DNA of 64,000 nt from an uncultured Hyphomicrobiales bacterium (GTDB taxonomy: Bacteria > Pseudomonadota > Alphaproteobacteria > Rhizobiales > Rhizobiaceae): positions 16,875 through 80,874 of the forward strand of contig CALTTH010000003.1 of the NCBI GenBank assembly GCA_943908365.1, written 5' to 3'. Below, piece by piece: positions 193 to 34,500 of this stretch (positions are counted from its first letter, which is position 1; each line of letters starts with the position of its first letter). A model generated the notes under the pieces. The model was not told the origin of the DNA and did no database searches. It saw only the letters and a list, made by a program, of their open reading frames with translations. A program made the translations under genes and the position numbers.

Positions 193-550
193 GGATGAGT
201 TACCACAGTTGATGCAACGGGCCGAGCAGAACTCGGTCCTCAAAAGATGAAACAGGTTGCGTTGCTGTGTTGTCTGGCGGATCGGCGGCCAGAAGAGCCA
301 CCCGGATTTTCACCGGGTCCTTGTGGATGATTGCTCTATAATCGAGATGTCGACGTGCTGCAACCGGCATCGTTTTGCTGAAACGCTTGAAGCACTATCG
401 CTGTCCGTTAAAGAAGTCCTACTTGGATCTGCTGTTTTTGATCCATCCCGCCAATCGGAAGATAACCCATTTTCTTAAACGAAAAGAGTATCTTATCGTC
501 TAAAACGTGTTTCCAGGGAGGCCACTTGATGGCAGGCGCTGGGGAGCGTG

Positions 551-19609: not shown

Positions 19610-19685
19610 TGGTGAGAGCGCAGGGATTCGAACCCTGGACCTACTGATTAAAAGTCAGTTGCTCTACCGGCTGAGCTACGCTCTC
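19610..19685 (-). tRNA. tRNA-Lys (anticodon UUU)
   Basis: The reverse complement, GAGAGCGTAGCTCAGCCGGTAGAGCAACTGACTTTTAATCAGTAGGTCCAGGGTTCGAATCCCTGCGCTCTCACCA, folds as a cloverleaf with a CTTTTAA anticodon loop and a GGTTCGAATCC T-arm. Confidence 0.85.
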
Positions 19686-28930: not shown

Positions 28931-29162
28931 ATGTCCCAGCTCCTATTTCCGTTTCGATGAACGGCCCGATCACCGTTACGTGAGTAAAAGCCGCAATTTA
29001 GAATTTGGTTCCATTGTGCAAAATGAATTTGCGGGAAATGGAGATTGAGAGCATGTCGCGCAAAATGTCTGCGCGGTCTTTCAATACCAACACGTGACAG
29101 GACACAGATGGAAGCGGTGGAAGCGATTCTGAAAGATCATAACACCGCATAAGGAGGATGGT

Positions 29163-29585
29163 GTGAGCGAGCTACGGGTTAAGAAGCGGGACGTCGGCGC
29201 GACAGCCCTTTTGGGACGCAATGGTCATCCGCACATTGCAACACCGACCGGCGGAAATCTCTCAGTGGTCACGGCCGTTTCGGAGCCTGGCTTCAATCCG
29301 CTCGACCTTCTGTACTCCTCGCTCGCCGCTTGCCTAGCCTTGAGTGCGCGCATTGCCGCAAGCCGCATGGGCGTGCTCAACAGGTTCGAGGCGGTCGAGG
29401 CGAAGGTGACGGGAGAAAAGTCTGAGGGTGAACCCGCCCGCATTCTCCGCTTCGACATGCGGCTGACGATCAGCGGTGATTTTGACGAGGCGACGAAGCA
29501 GGCCATTGCCCATGAAGCGGAGAGAATTTGCACCGTCAGCAATACGCTGCGCGGCGAGGCGGACTTTCATCTGTCTATCGCCTGA
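29163..29585 (+). CDS. OsmC/Ohr-family peroxiredoxin-like protein
   Basis: GFNPLDLLYSSLAACLA motif with the conserved Cys; AAGGAGGA RBS before the GTG start. Confidence 0.7.
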   Translation: MSELRVKKRDVGATALLGRNGHPHIATPTGGNLSVVTAVSEPGFNPLDLLYSSLAACLALSARIAASRMGVLNRFEAVEAKVTGEKSEGEPARILRFDMRLTISGDFDEATKQAIAHEAERICTVSNTLRGEADFHLSIA

Positions 29586-29613
29586 TACCGTTCCGAACTG
29601 CGCTGGCCATTAA

Positions 29614-30105
29614 TCAGCGCTGCATCTTTTCCCATTTGCGGATCAGCCGGTCGCGCTTGAGCTTCGATAGGCGCTTGATCCAGAAGATGCCGTCGAGCTG
29701 ATCGGTCTCATGCTGAATGCAGACGGCGTGAAAACCATCCGCGATCTCCTCCTGCTCAGCGCCCGTCAAATCCTGAAACCGCAACGTCACCCGCCGGGGA
29801 CGTTCCAGTTCCTCTGTGACTCCCGGCATGGAAACGCTGCCCTCGATATGGCGCATCGTCTCTGTCGAGATATGGATAATCTCAGGATTGACGTAGGTCA
29901 GGATCTTGCCGGGCTCAAGCTCCAGTACGAAAACCCTCTGAAAGACGCCGATATGTGCCGCCGTGATCCCCACACCAGGTGCTGCGCGCATGGTGTCGAC
30001 AAGGTCCTGCTGCAGGGTGGCGAGATCTGGGCCAAACGTCGCGACCGGCTCGCATGGGGTGGCAAGGGCAGGGGCTGGGTATCGGACGATGGTGCGAACG
30101 GTCAT
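29614..30105 (-). CDS. Peptide-deformylase-like protein with degenerate metal-binding motifs
   Basis: Def fold and length (163 aa). Motif I reads GVGITAAHIG (Q changed to H), motif II reads EGSVS instead of EGCLS (Cys ligand lost), and motif III reads QHETDQ instead of HExxH (second His lost). Confidence 0.6.
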   Translation of the reverse strand: MTVRTIVRYPAPALATPCEPVATFGPDLATLQQDLVDTMRAAPGVGITAAHIGVFQRVFVLELEPGKILTYVNPEIIHISTETMRHIEGSVSMPGVTEELERPRRVTLRFQDLTGAEQEEIADGFHAVCIQHETDQLDGIFWIKRLSKLKRDRLIRKWEKMQR

Positions 30106-30437
30106 GACGTCTGGGAACTCAAAGATGCAGGCTTCAGAGCGTTGGATGCGGTGGTCGCAAGCGCTCTTGCCTTTTCCGTCAATTCTACGAAGGTCCGCTG
30201 TGTTCGGGCTTCGCGGCGAAGGATATGGAGCAGTGTGCCGGAAAGCGCGCTGATCTCCCGCAGCACCAAAGCATGGGCAATACCAAGTTTGTTTGAAAGG
30301 CTGCGACTGTCACTTCCGAGACCGATATGGACCGCCACAATGAGCGCAGCGCCTGTCGGTTGAAGTCCAGCCGGCGCGATCTGCAGCAGTCTGTCCACCG
30401 CGGCCATGAAGCGCGTTGCGGTGTCTTCCTCGTCCAT
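30102..30437 (-). CDS. Short MarR-like winged-helix protein (111 aa)
   Basis: HTH-like segment SRSLSNKLGIAHALVLREISALSG...RTFVELTEKARAL; both its start and its stop overlap the neighbouring genes. Confidence 0.4.
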   Translation of the reverse strand: MDEEDTATRFMAAVDRLLQIAPAGLQPTGAALIVAVHIGLGSDSRSLSNKLGIAHALVLREISALSGTLLHILRREARTQRTFVELTEKARALATTASNALKPASLSSQTS

Positions 30438-32743
30438 TATGCCGCCGCGGCCTCGCCCCGCAATCGCACCGACACCAGCACGGATTTGGAGGTTGGGGTG
30501 AAGCTGCCTTCGCCATAACTGTGTAGCGGCACGAGAACGTTGAGCTCTGGGTAGTAACCGCCGACGCTGCCCTGCGGTATGTCGTACGGCGCCAGACGGA
30601 AATCCTTCGCGATCCGTTCGACGCCATCGCCATATTCGCCGATCACATCGACCCGCTGTTTGGCGTGGGCGCCGAGCGTCTCCATATCCTTTGGGTTCAT
30701 GAAGATCACCTGACGTTCGCCGTAAACGCCGCGGTAGCGGTCATCGAGGCCGTAGATGGTGGTGTTGTACTGGTCGTGGCTGCGGAAAGTCTGGAGCACG
30801 AACAAACCGTCTTTCGACAATGCCGCCTGATGCTCCGTCATTTCCGGCAGAGGGCCGGTAAAGAAGACCGCTTTCTTTTCCGGTGTTTGCCATTCACGCT
30901 CAGCTGCCGCGTTGCGAAGATGGAAGCCGCGTGGCACCCGCACGCGCTCGTTGAACTCGTGGAAGCCTGGAATGACCCGCTCGATCATGTCTCGAATCAG
31001 ATCGTAATCATCCGCAAGGGCGTTCCAGTTGACGCGGTCACTGCCAAGCGTGGCTTCCGCGATACCCGCAATGATGGCAACTTCGGAACGCAGTTCGGGC
31101 GATGCCGGCTCATTTATCCCGCCAGAACCATGGACCATGCTCATGGAATCCTCGACCGTCACGATCTGCGGCAGGCCTGCGGAATTGCGGTCGATCTCGG
31201 TGCGGCCGAGGCATGGCAGGATGAACGAGGTTTCTCCAGGCACCAGATGCGAATGGTTGAGCTTGGTCGCGATGTTGACGGTCAGCTTCTGCTTTTTGAA
31301 CGCTTCGATGATCAGCGGGCTGTCGGGCGTGGCGCGCAGGAAGTTGCCGCCAAGCGCGATAAAGGCCTGAGCGTGGCCATCCAGCATGGCGCTGATCGCT
31401 TCCACCGTGTTGTGCCCACGGTTGCGCGGCATCGTCACGCCGAGTTCCTTTTCGAGCGCATCAAGCAGGGCAGGCGGTGCCTTCTCGTCGATGCCAACAG
31501 TGCGATCGCCTTGCACGTTCGAATGGCCGCGGACAGGGCAGAGGCCAGCACCGGGCCGCCCGACATTGCCCCGAAGCAGCATCAGATTGGTGATCTCGCG
31601 AACGATAGCGACGGAGTGCTTGTGCTGAGTGACACCCATCGCCCATGTGGCGATGACGGAACTGGCATTCATGTAGATGGAGGCCGCTTCCTCGATCGCC
31701 TCACGTGTCAAACCCGACTGGTCGAGAATGGTCTCCCAGCTCGTTGCATCCACGGCAGCGCGGTATGCCTCGAATTCCACGGCATGGCTGGCGAGGAAGT
31801 CATAGTCGATGATGGCTGGCTGACCCGCGGCGCGCGCCGCCTCATCGGCCGCGAACACCACCTTGCTGATACCGCGAATAGCGGCCATGTCGCCGCCCTG
31901 GCGTGGCTGGTAGTAATTGGTGGCAATCTTCGTGTTACTGCCGCTGATCATCTCCAGCTTGTCCTGCGGATCACTGAAGCGCTGCAGACCTTTTTCCTTG
32001 ATCGGATTGAAGACGGCAATGCGCGCGCCACGAAGTGCCGCTCGCCTTAGATCGCCCAGCATGCGTGGATGGTTGGTGCCGGGATTCTGGCCAATGACGA
32101 AGATCGCATCGGTCTTCTCGAAATCCTCCAGAAGCACGGTACCCTTGCCGACACCGATCGAGGCTTTCAGACCGACGCCGCTCGCCTCATGGCACATGTT
32201 GGAGCAGTCGGGAAAATTGTTGGTGCCGTAAAGTCGGACCATCAGCTGATAGAGGAAGGCAGCTTCATTGGAGGCCCGACCGGATGTGTAGAACTCGGCG
32301 CGATCCGGGCTGTCGAGTCCGCGCAGGATGGTCCCGATCTCGCGGAATGCATCGTCCCAGGACACAGGCACGTATTGGTCGGAGGAACGATCGTAACGCA
32401 GTGGGTTCGTCAGGCGGCCTTGTTTCTCAAGCTCGTAATCCGACCATTGCCTCAGCGCGGAGACCGTATGCGCAGCGAAGAACTCCGGCGGAACGCGGGC
32501 CTCCGTGGCTTCCCAGGATACGGCCTTTACACCGTTTTCGCAAAATTCGAAGGATGAGCCATGCTCCGGGTCGCCCCAGGCGCAGCCAGGGCAATCGAAG
32601 CCATCGGGCTGATTGGTCTTGAGAAGCGCCTTCGCATTGGAGAGGGGTGCTCCGGATTCCAGCAGGCGCTTGCCAACACTTTTCAGCGCGCCCCAGCCGC
32701 CGGCCGCGGATGAGGGCTTACCGATGAAATCCATCTTACCCAT
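30437..32743 (-). CDS. Molybdopterin oxidoreductase alpha subunit, FdhF-like YdeP family
   Basis: N-terminal Cys cluster (DCPGCAWGDPEHGSSFEFC) and bis-MGD domains; 768 aa. Start moved to MGKMDFIG, which has an AAGGAG RBS. Confidence 0.75.
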   Translation of the reverse strand: MGKMDFIGKPSSAAGGWGALKSVGKRLLESGAPLSNAKALLKTNQPDGFDCPGCAWGDPEHGSSFEFCENGVKAVSWEATEARVPPEFFAAHTVSALRQWSDYELEKQGRLTNPLRYDRSSDQYVPVSWDDAFREIGTILRGLDSPDRAEFYTSGRASNEAAFLYQLMVRLYGTNNFPDCSNMCHEASGVGLKASIGVGKGTVLLEDFEKTDAIFVIGQNPGTNHPRMLGDLRRAALRGARIAVFNPIKEKGLQRFSDPQDKLEMISGSNTKIATNYYQPRQGGDMAAIRGISKVVFAADEAARAAGQPAIIDYDFLASHAVEFEAYRAAVDATSWETILDQSGLTREAIEEAASIYMNASSVIATWAMGVTQHKHSVAIVREITNLMLLRGNVGRPGAGLCPVRGHSNVQGDRTVGIDEKAPPALLDALEKELGVTMPRNRGHNTVEAISAMLDGHAQAFIALGGNFLRATPDSPLIIEAFKKQKLTVNIATKLNHSHLVPGETSFILPCLGRTEIDRNSAGLPQIVTVEDSMSMVHGSGGINEPASPELRSEVAIIAGIAEATLGSDRVNWNALADDYDLIRDMIERVIPGFHEFNERVRVPRGFHLRNAAAEREWQTPEKKAVFFTGPLPEMTEHQAALSKDGLFVLQTFRSHDQYNTTIYGLDDRYRGVYGERQVIFMNPKDMETLGAHAKQRVDVIGEYGDGVERIAKDFRLAPYDIPQGSVGGYYPELNVLVPLHSYGEGSFTPTSKSVLVSVRLRGEAAAA

Positions 32744-33072
32744 TATAACATCTCTCCTTGAAGGCTTTGTCTCGATCGGTGCCAAAAAAAGACTCACCCG
32801 ATCCTTGGTTTGCACTGCAGCATAACTGTTCAGATAGGCGCTTACCTAGCATATATCAATTCTCTGCGTTGCACGGATGCGCGTTTCGTTTTCCCATTAG
32901 CGACACCCCGTCCGTGTGTTGACGACACGGAGCCACCCGTCGCTGCGGTGCGATGATGGCGAGGAAGACGATGAAACCAGTTCTTGCCTAACGGGTTGTT
33001 GACATTGTTGTTCTAAACGACAATCTCCAGCCCGTTGCAAAGCAGGCCAATGACCGGAGAAGGGGGCGCAAG

Positions 33073-34500
33073 TTGACACAAGCCGACCACGATCATCCCG
33101 CAACGGAAGAGGCCAAGCGTCCGGAAGTGATGGCCGACATCTATGCCGAAGACGGCTCGATCCGGTCAGACTTTCTCGCCATGGTCGGCGCGGCGATCGC
33201 CGATCGCGACGTGCTCTTCCTGCGCGAAAACGTCGCCCGCCTGCATGAATCCGAACTGGGCGACCTCCTGGAATCGATCCAGCCGGAGCAGCGCCACGCA
33301 CTTGTGCGTCTGCTAGGCACCGACTTCGACATGACCGCACTGACCGAGGTGGATGAAGCAATCCGCCTCGATATCGTCGAGCAGATGCCAAACGAGCAGA
33401 TCGCTGCCGGTATCGGCGAACTCGATTCGGACGACGCGGTCTACATTCTGGAAGACCTCGACCGCGAGGACCGCGAAGACATTCTCTCGCAGATGCCGTT
33501 CACCGAACGTGTCAGGCTCATGCGGGCGCTGGACTATCCGGAAAGCTCTGCCGGTCGCCGTATGCAGACCGAGTTCGTCGCGGTGCCGCCGTTCTGGACG
33601 GTCGGCCAGACGATCGACTACCTGCGTGAAGAGGAGGAGTTGCCCGAATCCTTCTCCCAGATTTTCGTTATCGATCCCACCTTCAAGCTTGTCGGCGCGC
33701 TCGACCTCGATCGGCTGCTCCGCTCAAAGCGGCAGGTGAAGATCGAAACCATCATGCACGAAACAAACCATCCCATTCCCGCGGAGATGGACCAGGAAGA
33801 GGCAGCCCAGCTCTTCGAGCAATATGACCTTCTGTCTGCGGCGGTCGTGGACAGCAACGGTCGCCTCGTCGGCGTGCTGACCATCGATGACGTGGTGGAC
33901 GTTATCCAGGAAGAGGCGGAGGAAGACTTGCTTCGCCTCGGCGGCGTTGGCGATGAAGAACTGTCCGATAGTATCGCCAGCACGTCCAAATCCCGTGTGC
34001 CGTGGCTTGGCATCAATCTGATGACGGCTTTCCTTGCAGCCTCGGTGATCGAACTTTTCGACGCCACGATTCAGCAGGTCGTGGCACTTGCCATCCTGAT
34101 GCCCATCGTCGCGGGCATGGGCGGCAACGCTGGATCGCAGACGATGACCGTTTCGGTGCGCGCTCTCGCCACCAAAAACCTCGATATCCACAACGCGGCG
34201 CGCATCATCCGACGTGAGGCCGGTGTGGGCCTTTTGAACGGCGCGCTCTTCGGCTGTGCAATCGGAATTATTGCTGGCATCTGGTTTCACGACGTCAACA
34301 TCGGCGGCATCATCGCAACAGCCATGCTGATCAACATGCTCGCCGCGGCTCTGGCTGGTATATTGATTCCTCTGTTTCTCGATAAGTTCGGCGCCGATCC
34401 GGCCGTTTCATCCGCCGTCTTCGTCACGGCGGTGACAGATATCGTCGGCTTCTTCTCATTCCTTGGCTTGGCAACATGGTGGTTCGGCATATCAGGATGA
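33073..34500 (+). CDS. mgtE: Magnesium transporter MgtE
   Basis: MgtE N-domain, tandem CBS domains and the C-terminal MgtE TM domain; TTG start with an AAGGGGG RBS. Confidence 0.85.
   Translation: MTQADHDHPATEEAKRPEVMADIYAEDGSIRSDFLAMVGAAIADRDVLFLRENVARLHESELGDLLESIQPEQRHALVRLLGTDFDMTALTEVDEAIRLDIVEQMPNEQIAAGIGELDSDDAVYILEDLDREDREDILSQMPFTERVRLMRALDYPESSAGRRMQTEFVAVPPFWTVGQTIDYLREEEELPESFSQIFVIDPTFKLVGALDLDRLLRSKRQVKIETIMHETNHPIPAEMDQEEAAQLFEQYDLLSAAVVDSNGRLVGVLTIDDVVDVIQEEAEEDLLRLGGVGDEELSDSIASTSKSRVPWLGINLMTAFLAASVIELFDATIQQVVALAILMPIVAGMGGNAGSQTMTVSVRALATKNLDIHNAARIIRREAGVGLLNGALFGCAIGIIAGIWFHDVNIGGIIATAMLINMLAAALAGILIPLFLDKFGADPAVSSAVFVTAVTDIVGFFSFLGLATWWFGISG

What the first reader, a model, noticed from the sequence alone, without database searches (positions are those of the whole stretch)
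29614..32743. Operon coupling a YdeP-type molybdoenzyme, a short winged-helix protein and a peptide-deformylase paralog that has lost its metal ligands
Three minus-strand genes are translationally coupled: their stops and starts overlap at 30437 and at 30102..30105. The last gene has the full Def fold and length. Motif II reads EGSVS instead of EGCLS, so the Cys metal ligand is missing. Motif III reads QHETDQ instead of HExxH, so the second His ligand is missing. Motif I is altered from Q to H. A deformylase without its metal centre cannot deformylate. Its tight coupling to an FdhF-like molybdopterin oxidoreductase and a truncated MarR-like protein suggests it has been repurposed as a non-catalytic binder or chaperone for the molybdoenzyme or its substrate. 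I do not recognise this arrangement as a described system.
Basis: partly seen in the sequence, partly recalled or inferred. Interest (0 to 1): 0.6.

Follow-up and report, generated by a model that had tools for sequence, protein, structure and literature searches.

The report
Deformylase look-alike behind a formate-dehydrogenase-type gene pair
A conserved but uncharacterised copy of peptide deformylase with a rebuilt active site sits, in Agrobacterium only, directly behind a known two-gene formate-dehydrogenase-type module, so the neighbourhood is a lineage-specific accident and gives no evidence of a new molybdoenzyme–chaperone system.

Summary
Three minus-strand genes (YdeP/FdhF-family molybdoenzyme, a 111-aa protein, a 163-aa Def paralog) overlap at TAATG (30437) and ATGA (30102-30105). 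The Def paralog has Q50H, C90S and H136Q and keeps H132 and E133.

- **The paralog ("DefL") is a catalogued family.** It passes NCBIfam NF009484, and UniRef calls members "Peptide deformylase-like". At least 544 species genomes encode it, mainly Hyphomicrobiales. The H/S/H/E/Q signature is invariant in 81/81 sequences, and dN/dS is 0.08-0.33.
- **The synteny is lineage-specific.** Only 14 of 80 sampled species, all but one named Agrobacterium (or Rhizobium nepotum), have ydeP upstream of defL. In 45 others defL lies divergent from mgtE. In the remaining 21 the neighbours are unrelated.
- **The other two genes are a separate module.** YdeP plus the small protein occurs without defL on Rhizobium, Shinella and Sinorhizobium plasmids. 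It resembles Fdh4AB of Methylobacterium. The small protein models confidently as a short MarR-like winged helix.

The operon is therefore a module inserted between mgtE and defL. DefL's function is unknown. Its conserved peptide groove and C-terminal helix suggest a ribosome or nascent-chain binder, or a hydrolase with non-canonical chemistry.

The parts
30437..32743 (-). FdhF/YdeP-family (Fdh4A-like) molybdopterin oxidoreductase, 768 aa from the ATG at 32743. The longest ORF starts at the GTG at 32815.
   Evidence: TIGR01701 950.9 bits (cutoff 582); the E. coli YdeP equivalog NF007406 scores 846.6, below its cutoff of 1473. PF00384 and PF01568 match. The closest solved structures are formate dehydrogenases. 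In the top hit (7qv7 FdhF), SNMCHEAS aligns with ARLCHAPT and GRPGAGLCPVRGHSNVQG aligns with GRPGAGICPLRGQNNVQG. Family-model matches begin at residue 35-38 of the 792-aa ORF, which favours the ATG start.
30102..30437 (-). Small MarR-like winged-helix protein (111 aa), candidate Fdh4B-like partner or regulator. Its start overlaps the ydeP stop (TAATG).
   Evidence: No Pfam hit. AF2 pLDDT 89.9 with topology H-H-H-H-beta-beta-H and a disordered tail at 105-111. Foldseek top hits are MarR-family repressors. Homologs at 43-50% identity lie directly after YdeP homologs on Rhizobium, Shinella and Sinorhizobium plasmids. Some UniRef entries are named 'Formate dehydrogenase F4B subunit'.
29614..30105 (-). 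DefL: a peptide-deformylase-like paralog (163 aa) with a rebuilt active site. H51 is at 29955-29953, S90 at 29838-29836, H132 at 29712-29710, E133 at 29709-29707 and Q136 at 29700-29698.
   Evidence: PF01327 E 9e-42. NF009484 254.6 bits (cutoff 190). Full-length alignment to PDB deformylases. Signature invariant in 120/120 close homologs, in all full-length subfamily representatives down to 36% identity and in 81/81 species orthologs. dN/dS 0.08-0.33.
32744..33072 (.). Intergenic region between ydeP and divergent mgtE; presumed to hold the operon promoter.
   Evidence: No sigma-70 consensus site was found and there was no Rfam match. Only a roughly 45-nt mgtE-proximal element (32987-33031) is shared with the mgtE-defL intergenic regions of other Rhizobiaceae.
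33073..34500 (+). mgtE (context): the ancestral divergent neighbour of defL in Rhizobiaceae.
   Evidence: In 45 of 80 species loci mgtE lies 164-354 nt from defL, divergently oriented. In the 14 Agrobacterium-type loci ydeP plus the small gene lies between them. S. meliloti is annotated merR-mgtE<>peptide deformylase.
29163..29585 (+). OsmC/Ohr-like gene, convergent with defL (context only).
   Evidence: PF02566 E 4e-17. A plus-strand terminator-like hairpin lies at 29600-29620 between the two convergent genes.

Best explanation
The three genes are two independent, already-catalogued modules that became one probable transcription unit in the Agrobacterium lineage.

Module 1 is an Fdh4AB-type pair. 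It comprises a cytoplasmic FdhF/YdeP-family molybdopterin oxidoreductase that keeps the Cys-His and Arg active-site motifs of formate dehydrogenases, and a translationally coupled short MarR-like winged-helix protein. The small protein most likely binds DNA and regulates the unit; this is inferred from its fold and its conserved wing and recognition-helix arginines.

Module 2 is defL, a stand-alone paralog of type-1B peptide deformylase found mainly in Hyphomicrobiales. Its catalytic centre was rebuilt once (Q50H, C90S, H136Q, also A47T; H132 and E133 kept) and has been held fixed by purifying selection since. In other Rhizobiaceae defL is transcribed divergently from mgtE. In Agrobacterium the ydeP-small module sits between mgtE and defL, so defL now reads through from it.

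DefL is therefore not a dedicated partner of the molybdoenzyme. It keeps the substrate-groove residues (G43, G45, E88, G89, C129, R102) and the basic C-terminal helix that docks E. coli deformylase on the ribosome. It most likely still engages nascent N-termini at the ribosome without the canonical Cys-His-His metal centre. It could do so as a non-catalytic binder, or as a hydrolase using a different (Ser/His or hard-metal) centre. This last step is inference, not shown.
For: - Gene calls and overlaps.
- Family assignments.
- DefL signature invariant across the subfamily.
- Purifying selection, dN/dS 0.08-0.33.
- At least 544 species genomes encode a DefL relative carrying QHE[IT]DQ.
- Synteny split of 14 (ydeP+small upstream), 45 (mgtE divergent) and 21 (other).
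- Unrelated neighbours elsewhere (Bosea fadA/fadB, Bradyrhizobium MarR-GNAT, Mesorhizobium MucR and RecQ, Acuticoccus aldo/keto reductase, Tistrella DMT/SDR).
- The ydeP+small pair without defL on Rhizobium, Shinella and Sinorhizobium plasmids, and a decayed copy in Aminobacter.
- The small protein is MarR-like.
- Fdh4A is a YdeP-family protein involved in formate oxidation and is functionally coupled to the adjacent Fdh4B: PMC10308882.
- The ATGA overlap of the small gene with defL occurs only in the window and its two closest relatives. Other Agrobacterium species have 13-40-nt gaps with GGAG.
- No minus-strand terminator lies inside the unit.
Against: - Co-transcription is inferred from spacing only; there are no expression data.
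- The arrangement is retained in all 14 sampled Agrobacterium-type species, so a secondarily acquired functional link in that genus cannot be excluded.
- Only the 80 closest of at least 544 DefL loci were inspected.
- Homology of the small protein to M. extorquens Fdh4B rests on database names, not on a direct alignment.
- The DefL structural model was poor (pLDDT 68.5), so active-site geometry could not be assessed.
- Ribosome binding is inferred from sequence conservation of the C-terminal helix.
Confidence: 0.62

Rival explanations
1. One reading: DefL is a catalytically dead deformylase fold repurposed as a non-catalytic binder or chaperone for the YdeP molybdoenzyme or its substrate, which would explain the tight translational coupling.
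For: Tight coupling in the window. The arrangement is retained in 14 Agrobacterium-type species. Canonical metal ligands C90 and H136 are absent.
Against: 66 of 80 sampled species carry DefL with no YdeP within 6 kb, as do S. meliloti, Mesorhizobium, Acuticoccus and Tistrella. The YdeP-small modules on plasmids lack DefL. The 4-nt overlap is confined to the window's closest relatives. DefL sequence and signature are the same whether or not YdeP is adjacent.
Confidence: 0.07
2. DefL is an active deformylase or formyl-amide hydrolase with a non-canonical centre. In Agrobacterium the operon then makes metabolic sense: DefL releases formate and the Fdh4A/YdeP-type enzyme oxidises it.
For: H51, S90, H132, E133 and Q136 are all invariant, as are the groove and second-shell residues. 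This is the pattern of a working site and not of a relaxed one. E133 and H132, the catalytic base and one ligand, are kept. YdeP retains formate-dehydrogenase active-site motifs. Fdh4A homologs are implicated in formate oxidation (PMC10308882). Accessory PDFs with altered motifs can retain activity, for example the T. brucei type 3 enzymes cited in PMC12690207.
Against: No activity data exist. From established knowledge of E. coli Def mutagenesis (recalled from memory, not checked here), substitutions of C90 or H136 abolish metal binding and activity. The genomic link to formate oxidation is confined to one genus. Inactive accessory PDFs with substituted motifs are documented in S. aureus and S. 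pneumoniae (PMC12690207).
Confidence: 0.15
3. DefL is a decaying relic (pseudogene in progress) of a duplicated def gene with no function.
For: It lacks two of the three canonical metal ligands.
Against: The ORF is intact in at least 544 species genomes. dN/dS is 0.08-0.33. 30 of 160 columns are invariant, including every substituted active-site position. The family is recognised by a dedicated NCBIfam model.
Confidence: 0.02

Closest known systems
NCBIfam NF009484 (PRK12846.1-5, annotated 'peptide deformylase') and proteins that UniRef names 'Peptide deformylase-like'
   Same: The window protein scores 254.6 bits against a cutoff of 190. Close homologs from Agrobacterium and Rhizobium carry the UniRef name 'Peptide deformylase-like'. 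They have the same length and the same H/S/H/E/Q signature.
   Different: None at the sequence level; this is a member. The family has a name but I found no tested function. PGAP labels it simply 'peptide deformylase', which is probably misleading.
Inactive or low-activity accessory peptide deformylases (type 3 PDFs; the S. aureus and S. pneumoniae second copies)
   Same: It is a second def-like gene alongside an essential canonical def, with substitutions in the catalytic motifs (PMC12690207).
   Different: DefL is closest to type-1B enzymes (best PDB hits are P. aeruginosa and other proteobacterial PDFs, with a C-terminal helix), not to type 3. Its substitutions hit two metal ligands plus Q50, and they are a fixed, invariant set across an order of Alphaproteobacteria.
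Fdh4AB of Methylobacterium (Methylorubrum) extorquens AM1
   Same: Both have a YdeP/FdhF-family large subunit followed directly by a small gene. Fdh4A is involved in formate oxidation and Fdh4B is reported as functionally coupled (PMC10308882; PMC12797532). Rhizobium members of the small-protein family are named 'Formate dehydrogenase F4B subunit' in UniRef.
   Different: Direct alignment to M. extorquens Fdh4B could not be done. Here the small protein models as a MarR-like DNA-binding fold, which fits a regulator better than an enzyme subunit. A third gene (defL) follows only in Agrobacterium.
E. coli YdeP (acid-resistance putative oxidoreductase)
   Same: Same TIGR01701 family and a similar length, with alignment over 748 residues.
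   Different: The score is below the YdeP equivalog cutoff (846.6 against 1473), so it is not an ortholog by NCBI's criterion. The genomic context also differs.
MarR-family transcriptional repressors (MexR, MarR, OhrR-type)
   Same: Winged-helix topology, with best Foldseek hits to MexR, MarR and MepR. It has conserved wing arginines and an E-x-R...L-T wing motif (the motif resemblance is from my own reading).
   Different: It is only 90-111 aa against about 140, and lacks the last dimerisation helix. There is no Pfam MarR hit. It is encoded downstream of, and translationally coupled to, an enzyme gene.

Membership tests
Peptide deformylase, active enzyme (PF01327 / EC 3.5.1.88) | Full-length Pep_deformylase domain | tested here: met
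   PF01327 E 9.4e-42, profile positions 2-155 of 156. Aligns over residues 1-163 to 1n5n.
Peptide deformylase, active enzyme (PF01327 / EC 3.5.1.88) | Motif I G-phi-G-phi-A-A-x-Q, with Gln50 | tested here: not met
   GVGITAAH: His replaces Gln50 and Thr replaces Ala47.
Peptide deformylase, active enzyme (PF01327 / EC 3.5.1.88) | Motif II EGCLS, with the metal ligand Cys90 | tested here: not met
   EGSVS: Ser at position 90, invariant in 81/81 orthologs.
Peptide deformylase, active enzyme (PF01327 / EC 3.5.1.88) | Motif III HExxH (ligands His132 and His136, catalytic Glu133) | tested here: not met
   HETDQ: H132 and E133 are present, H136 is replaced by Gln.
Peptide deformylase, active enzyme (PF01327 / EC 3.5.1.88) | Deformylase activity on fMet-peptides and a bound Fe/Zn/Ni ion | not testable with these tools
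   Needs purified protein, metal analysis and an activity assay.
DefL / NCBIfam NF009484 ('Peptide deformylase-like') | Score above the curated cutoff of the family model | tested here: met
   254.6 bits against a cutoff of 190, model positions 1-164 of 165.
DefL / NCBIfam NF009484 ('Peptide deformylase-like') | Shared H50/S90/H132/E133/Q136 signature (my operational definition) | tested here: met
   Present in the window protein and in all 120 close homologs, in the full-length 50%-cluster representatives, and in 81/81 species orthologs.
FdhF/YdeP family oxidoreductase (TIGR01701) | Score above the family cutoff, with molybdopterin and MGD-binding domains | tested here: met
   950.9 bits against 582. 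PF00384 and PF01568 match.
FdhF/YdeP family oxidoreductase (TIGR01701) | Formate-dehydrogenase-type Cys/Sec-His pair and conserved Arg | tested here: met
   SNMCHEAS aligns with ARLCHAPT, and PVRGHSNVQG aligns with PLRGQNNVQG, in FdhF 7qv7. Assigning these as the catalytic residues relies on established FDH-H knowledge.
E. coli YdeP ortholog (NF007406 equivalog) | Score above the equivalog cutoff | tested here: not met
   846.6 bits against a cutoff of 1473.
Fdh4AB-type pair (M. extorquens) | A YdeP-family large gene followed immediately by a small, coupled gene | tested here: met
   TAATG overlap in the window. A 4-nt overlap in R. lentis and Shinella. The same order in Sinorhizobium sp. RAC02.
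Fdh4AB-type pair (M. extorquens) | Small protein homologous to M. extorquens Fdh4B | not tested
   Only indirect evidence: UniRef names 'Formate dehydrogenase F4B subunit' on Rhizobium family members, and one Methylobacterium plasmid tblastn hit counted but not inspected. The Fdh4B sequence and the 2007 paper could not be retrieved.
Fdh4AB-type pair (M. extorquens) | Formate oxidation activity | not testable with these tools
   Needs an enzyme assay or genetics.
MarR family transcriptional regulator | Pfam MarR/MarR_2 sequence match | tested here: not met
   No Pfam hit at E<0.1 apart from a spurious PEX6_vert_N match.
MarR family transcriptional regulator | Winged-helix fold with the MarR topology | tested here: met
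   AF2 pLDDT 89.9. The top 30 Foldseek PDB hits are all MarR-family regulators, TMq 0.5-0.62.
MarR family transcriptional regulator | About 140 aa with C-terminal dimerisation helices; binds DNA | tested here: inconclusive
   The family is 90-111 aa, and the model ends after one post-wing helix. DNA binding was not testable.

The most novel reading that the evidence does not exclude
DefL is not a dead enzyme. It would be a deformylase-fold hydrolase that swapped the oxidation-sensitive Cys-His-His Fe(II) centre for a Ser/His-based or hard-metal (His-His-Gln/Glu) centre. That would give Hyphomicrobiales an iron-independent, peroxide-resistant way to process formylated N-termini at the ribosome. 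In Agrobacterium it would have been wired to a formate-oxidising enzyme so that the released formate is removed.
Probability: 0.12. Interest if true: 0.7.

Novelty: new member of a known kind. Interest (0 to 1): 0.3.

Why it matters
As a "new molybdoenzyme-chaperone system" the finding does not hold up. The three-gene operon is a genus-level juxtaposition of two known modules.

What remains of value is narrower:
- A deformylase paralog found mainly in one order, with a rebuilt and strictly frozen active site, is annotated everywhere as plain "peptide deformylase" and has no known function. Working it out would bear on co-translational N-terminal processing. It would also affect how accessory PDFs are counted when deformylase inhibitors are considered.
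- The so-called B subunit of Fdh4-type formate dehydrogenases looks like a MarR-type DNA-binding protein. This would change how that enzyme system is described.

Tried and rejected
- **DefL structure.** The AlphaFold model built from 35 close homologs was poor (pLDDT 68.5, with the HExxH helix not modelled as a helix). I did not use it for geometry or fold search.
- **Fdh4 paper and sequence.** I tried to read the original Fdh4 paper by DOI and by PMC id; it is not held. No M. extorquens Fdh4B sequence could be obtained, so that homology stays untested.
- **Regulatory signals.** Promoter and terminator scans of 29000-33400 found no sigma-70-like site and no minus-strand terminator. Rfam found nothing in the ydeP-mgtE intergenic region, and only a tRNA and a sul1 RNA elsewhere in the window.
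- **Literature.** Searches for 'peptide deformylase-like' and for Agrobacterium + deformylase + ydeP found nothing on this family or arrangement.
- **Conserved DefL partner outside Rhizobiaceae.** Rejected, because the neighbours differ in every family examined.
- **mgtE as a functional partner.** Considered on the basis of a possible hard-metal link. The adjacency is confined to Rhizobiaceae and is broken in the R. tropici group, so I leave it as a lead only.
- **Pseudogene reading.** Rejected on dN/dS and invariance.
Full report
**1. Observation**

The window holds three consecutive minus-strand ORFs: 30437..32815 (792 aa from a GTG), 30102..30437 (111 aa) and 29614..30105 (163 aa). The junctions read ...gcATAATGg... 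and ...gtcATGAcc... The first stop overlaps the second start by one base at 30437. The second stop overlaps the third start by four bases at 30102-30105. No terminator-like hairpin lies on the minus strand inside the unit.

The large protein belongs to the FdhF/YdeP family. It scores 950.9 bits against TIGR01701 (cutoff 582) and matches PF00384 and PF01568.

The 163-aa protein matches PF01327 over almost the whole profile (E 9e-42). It aligns end to end with solved type-1B deformylases (1n5n, E 8e-32). In those alignments, and against E. coli Def, motif I is GVGITAAH (Q50->H). Motif II is EGSVS (C90->S). Motif III is QHETDQ (H132 and E133 kept, H136->Q).

**2. The Def paralog is a conserved, catalogued family, not a local oddity**

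The protein passes the curated cutoff of a dedicated NCBIfam model, NF009484 (254.6 bits against 190). UniRef names several close homologs "Peptide deformylase-like".

- All 120 closest database homologs carry G[VL]GITAAH (118 GVGITAAH, one GLGITAAH, one not matched by the pattern), EGSVS and QHExxQ.
- In a search of 1.84 billion cluster representatives, every full-length member of the subfamily, down to 36-45% identity, has H/S/H/E/Q at the five catalytic positions. The next-best hits are canonical Q/C/H/E/H deformylases.
- A scan of one genome per species found at least 544 genomes encoding a relative with QHE[IT]DQ. The named members are Rhizobiaceae, Bosea, Bradyrhizobium, Mesorhizobium, Phyllobacterium, Microvirga, Xanthobacter, Ensifer and Acuticoccus. 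One is a Tistrella plasmid, outside Hyphomicrobiales.
- Across the window protein and 80 species orthologs, the positions corresponding to H50, S90, H132, E133 and Q136 are invariant (81/81). So are T47, G43, G45, E88, G89, S92, R102, Q131 and D135; C129 is conserved in 80 of 81. The C-terminal helix is also highly conserved.
- Pairwise dN/dS against orthologs is 0.08-0.33.

This is a gene under purifying selection whose substituted site is itself constrained. The pseudogene option named in the finding's "would refute" clause is excluded.

**3. The synteny test**

I examined 80 species loci with 6 kb on each side.

- **14 loci** have a YdeP homolog (84-97% identity) and the small gene directly upstream of defL. 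Thirteen are named Agrobacterium or Rhizobium nepotum, and one is an unnamed "Rhizobiales bacterium" isolate.
- **45 loci** (Neorhizobium, Rhizobium, Pseudorhizobium, Ciceribacter, Allorhizobium and others) have defL 164-354 nt from a divergently transcribed mgtE, with a merR-family gene behind it. The annotated S. meliloti record shows the same order.
- **21 loci** have other contexts.

In the 14 Agrobacterium-type loci, mgtE and merR are still present, on the far side of ydeP. The simplest history is that a ydeP-small module came to lie between mgtE and defL. Only a roughly 45-nt mgtE-proximal element of the old intergenic region is still recognisable.

Outside Rhizobiaceae the neighbours of defL are unrelated from family to family:

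- Bosea: thiolase and a FadB-type enzyme.
- Bradyrhizobium: a MarR-GNAT fusion and a beta-lactamase-fold protein.
- Mesorhizobium: MucR and RecQ.
- Aquamicrobium: a methyltransferase.
- Acuticoccus: an aldo/keto reductase.
- Tistrella: DMT and SDR genes.

The four-base overlap between the small gene and defL occurs only in the window and its two closest relatives. The other Agrobacterium species have 13-40-nt gaps containing GGAG.

**4. The other two genes are a module of their own**

On Rhizobium lentis, Shinella and Sinorhizobium sp. RAC02 plasmids, a YdeP homolog (71-74% identity) is followed by a 90-101-aa homolog of the small protein (43-50% identity). The two genes overlap by four bases in R. 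lentis and Shinella, and no def-like gene follows. An Aminobacter plasmid keeps the small gene behind a truncated YdeP remnant.

The small-protein family has about 315 database members, almost all Rhizobiaceae. It has no Pfam domain. Some UniRef entries name members "Formate dehydrogenase F4B subunit" and others "MarR family transcriptional regulator".

Its AlphaFold model is confident (pLDDT 89.9), with helix-helix-helix-helix-hairpin-helix topology and a disordered Agrobacterium-specific tail. The best structural matches are all MarR-family repressors.

In the literature, M. extorquens FDH4 is encoded by fdh4A and an adjacent small fdh4B. Fdh4A is a YdeP-family protein implicated in formate oxidation, and fdh4B is reported as functionally coupled (PMC10308882; PMC12797532). 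The window's large protein aligns best with solved formate dehydrogenases. It keeps the Cys-His and Arg motifs at the positions of the FDH catalytic residues. I could not align the small protein directly with Fdh4B, so that link rests on database names.

**5. How it most likely works**

- **Shown:** two modules, each conserved on its own, are adjacent and probably co-transcribed only in Agrobacterium.
- **Inferred for module 1:** the large subunit is a cytoplasmic formate-type (or related) molybdenum oxidoreductase. The small protein is a DNA-binding autoregulator and not a catalytic subunit, judging from its fold and its conserved wing and recognition-helix arginines.
- **Inferred for DefL:** it has lost the canonical Cys-His-His site but keeps the peptide groove, Glu133, His132 and the basic C-terminal helix. 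In E. coli that helix inserts between uL22 and uL32 on the ribosome (as summarised in PMC12690207). The likeliest activity is binding nascent N-termini at the ribosome.

Whether DefL is a pseudoenzyme or a hydrolase with a new centre cannot be decided here. The strict invariance of the replacement residues (His, Ser, Gln, plus Thr47) favours a working site over a relaxed one. On the other hand, documented accessory PDFs with altered motifs include both inactive (S. aureus, S. pneumoniae) and active (T. brucei) cases.

The chaperone-for-YdeP idea is disfavoured by the distribution data. It could still be a secondary, genus-specific co-option.

**6. Comparison and novelty**

DefL is a member of NF009484, the "Peptide deformylase-like" family. 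It fails the membership test for an active canonical deformylase on three defining residues. The large protein is a TIGR01701 member but not an E. coli YdeP equivalog (846.6 bits against a cutoff of 1473). The pair resembles Fdh4AB.

I found no paper describing the three-gene arrangement. It is nonetheless a lineage-specific juxtaposition of catalogued parts, so I rate it "new member of a known kind".

Interest is modest (0.3). The operon-level claim dissolves. What is left is an unexplained, well-conserved deformylase paralog and a probable mislabelling of Fdh4B-type proteins as enzyme subunits.

Noticed in passing
window 30102-30437 (-); L001 3653-3925, L002 3623-3928, L084 4001-4279: The small gene that follows YdeP/Fdh4A-type genes is named 'Formate dehydrogenase F4B subunit' in some databases and treated as FDH4 subunit B in the literature. 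It models confidently as a short MarR-like winged-helix DNA-binding protein. It may therefore be a regulator and not an enzyme subunit.
   Followed up: partly
window 32987-33031 (42-86 nt upstream of the mgtE start at 33073): A roughly 45-nt element (GTCGTTTAGAACAACAATGTCAACAACCCGTTAGGCAAGAACTGG on the minus strand) is conserved upstream of mgtE in several other Rhizobiaceae (73-81% over 36-49 nt; the best five E-values are 4e-5 to 2e-3). It has no Rfam match. It could be an mgtE leader or operator.
   Followed up: partly
L083 3447-4243 (Aminobacter sp. SS-2016 plasmid pANY103a): Only the C-terminal 175 residues of a YdeP homolog remain (unannotated remnant), directly upstream of an intact small-protein gene. 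The small gene therefore outlives the enzyme gene here.
   Followed up: partly
L086 4001-4585 (Tistrella mobilis plasmid pTM2): This DefL ortholog lies outside Hyphomicrobiales and carries an in-frame GDAEA tandem-repeat insertion in the loop after strand 2. The H/S/H/E/Q signature is intact.
   Followed up: no
P0361 (Kordiimonadaceae MAG): A different degenerate deformylase lineage has M/S/H/E/Y at the five catalytic positions (EASLS, HEMDY). Cys90-to-Ser replacement has therefore happened more than once in Alphaproteobacteria.
   Followed up: no
L078 5220-5906 and L087 3447-3929 (Mesorhizobium): In two Mesorhizobium replicons defL lies directly downstream of a Ros/MucR-family regulator gene on the same strand. 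This is a second lineage-specific pairing of defL with a small DNA-binding protein.
   Followed up: no
window 268-323 (-) and 19613-19685 (-): Rfam gathering-level hits to a sul1 RNA (RF03058, 76.8 bits) and a tRNA. Both are unrelated to the finding.
   Followed up: no
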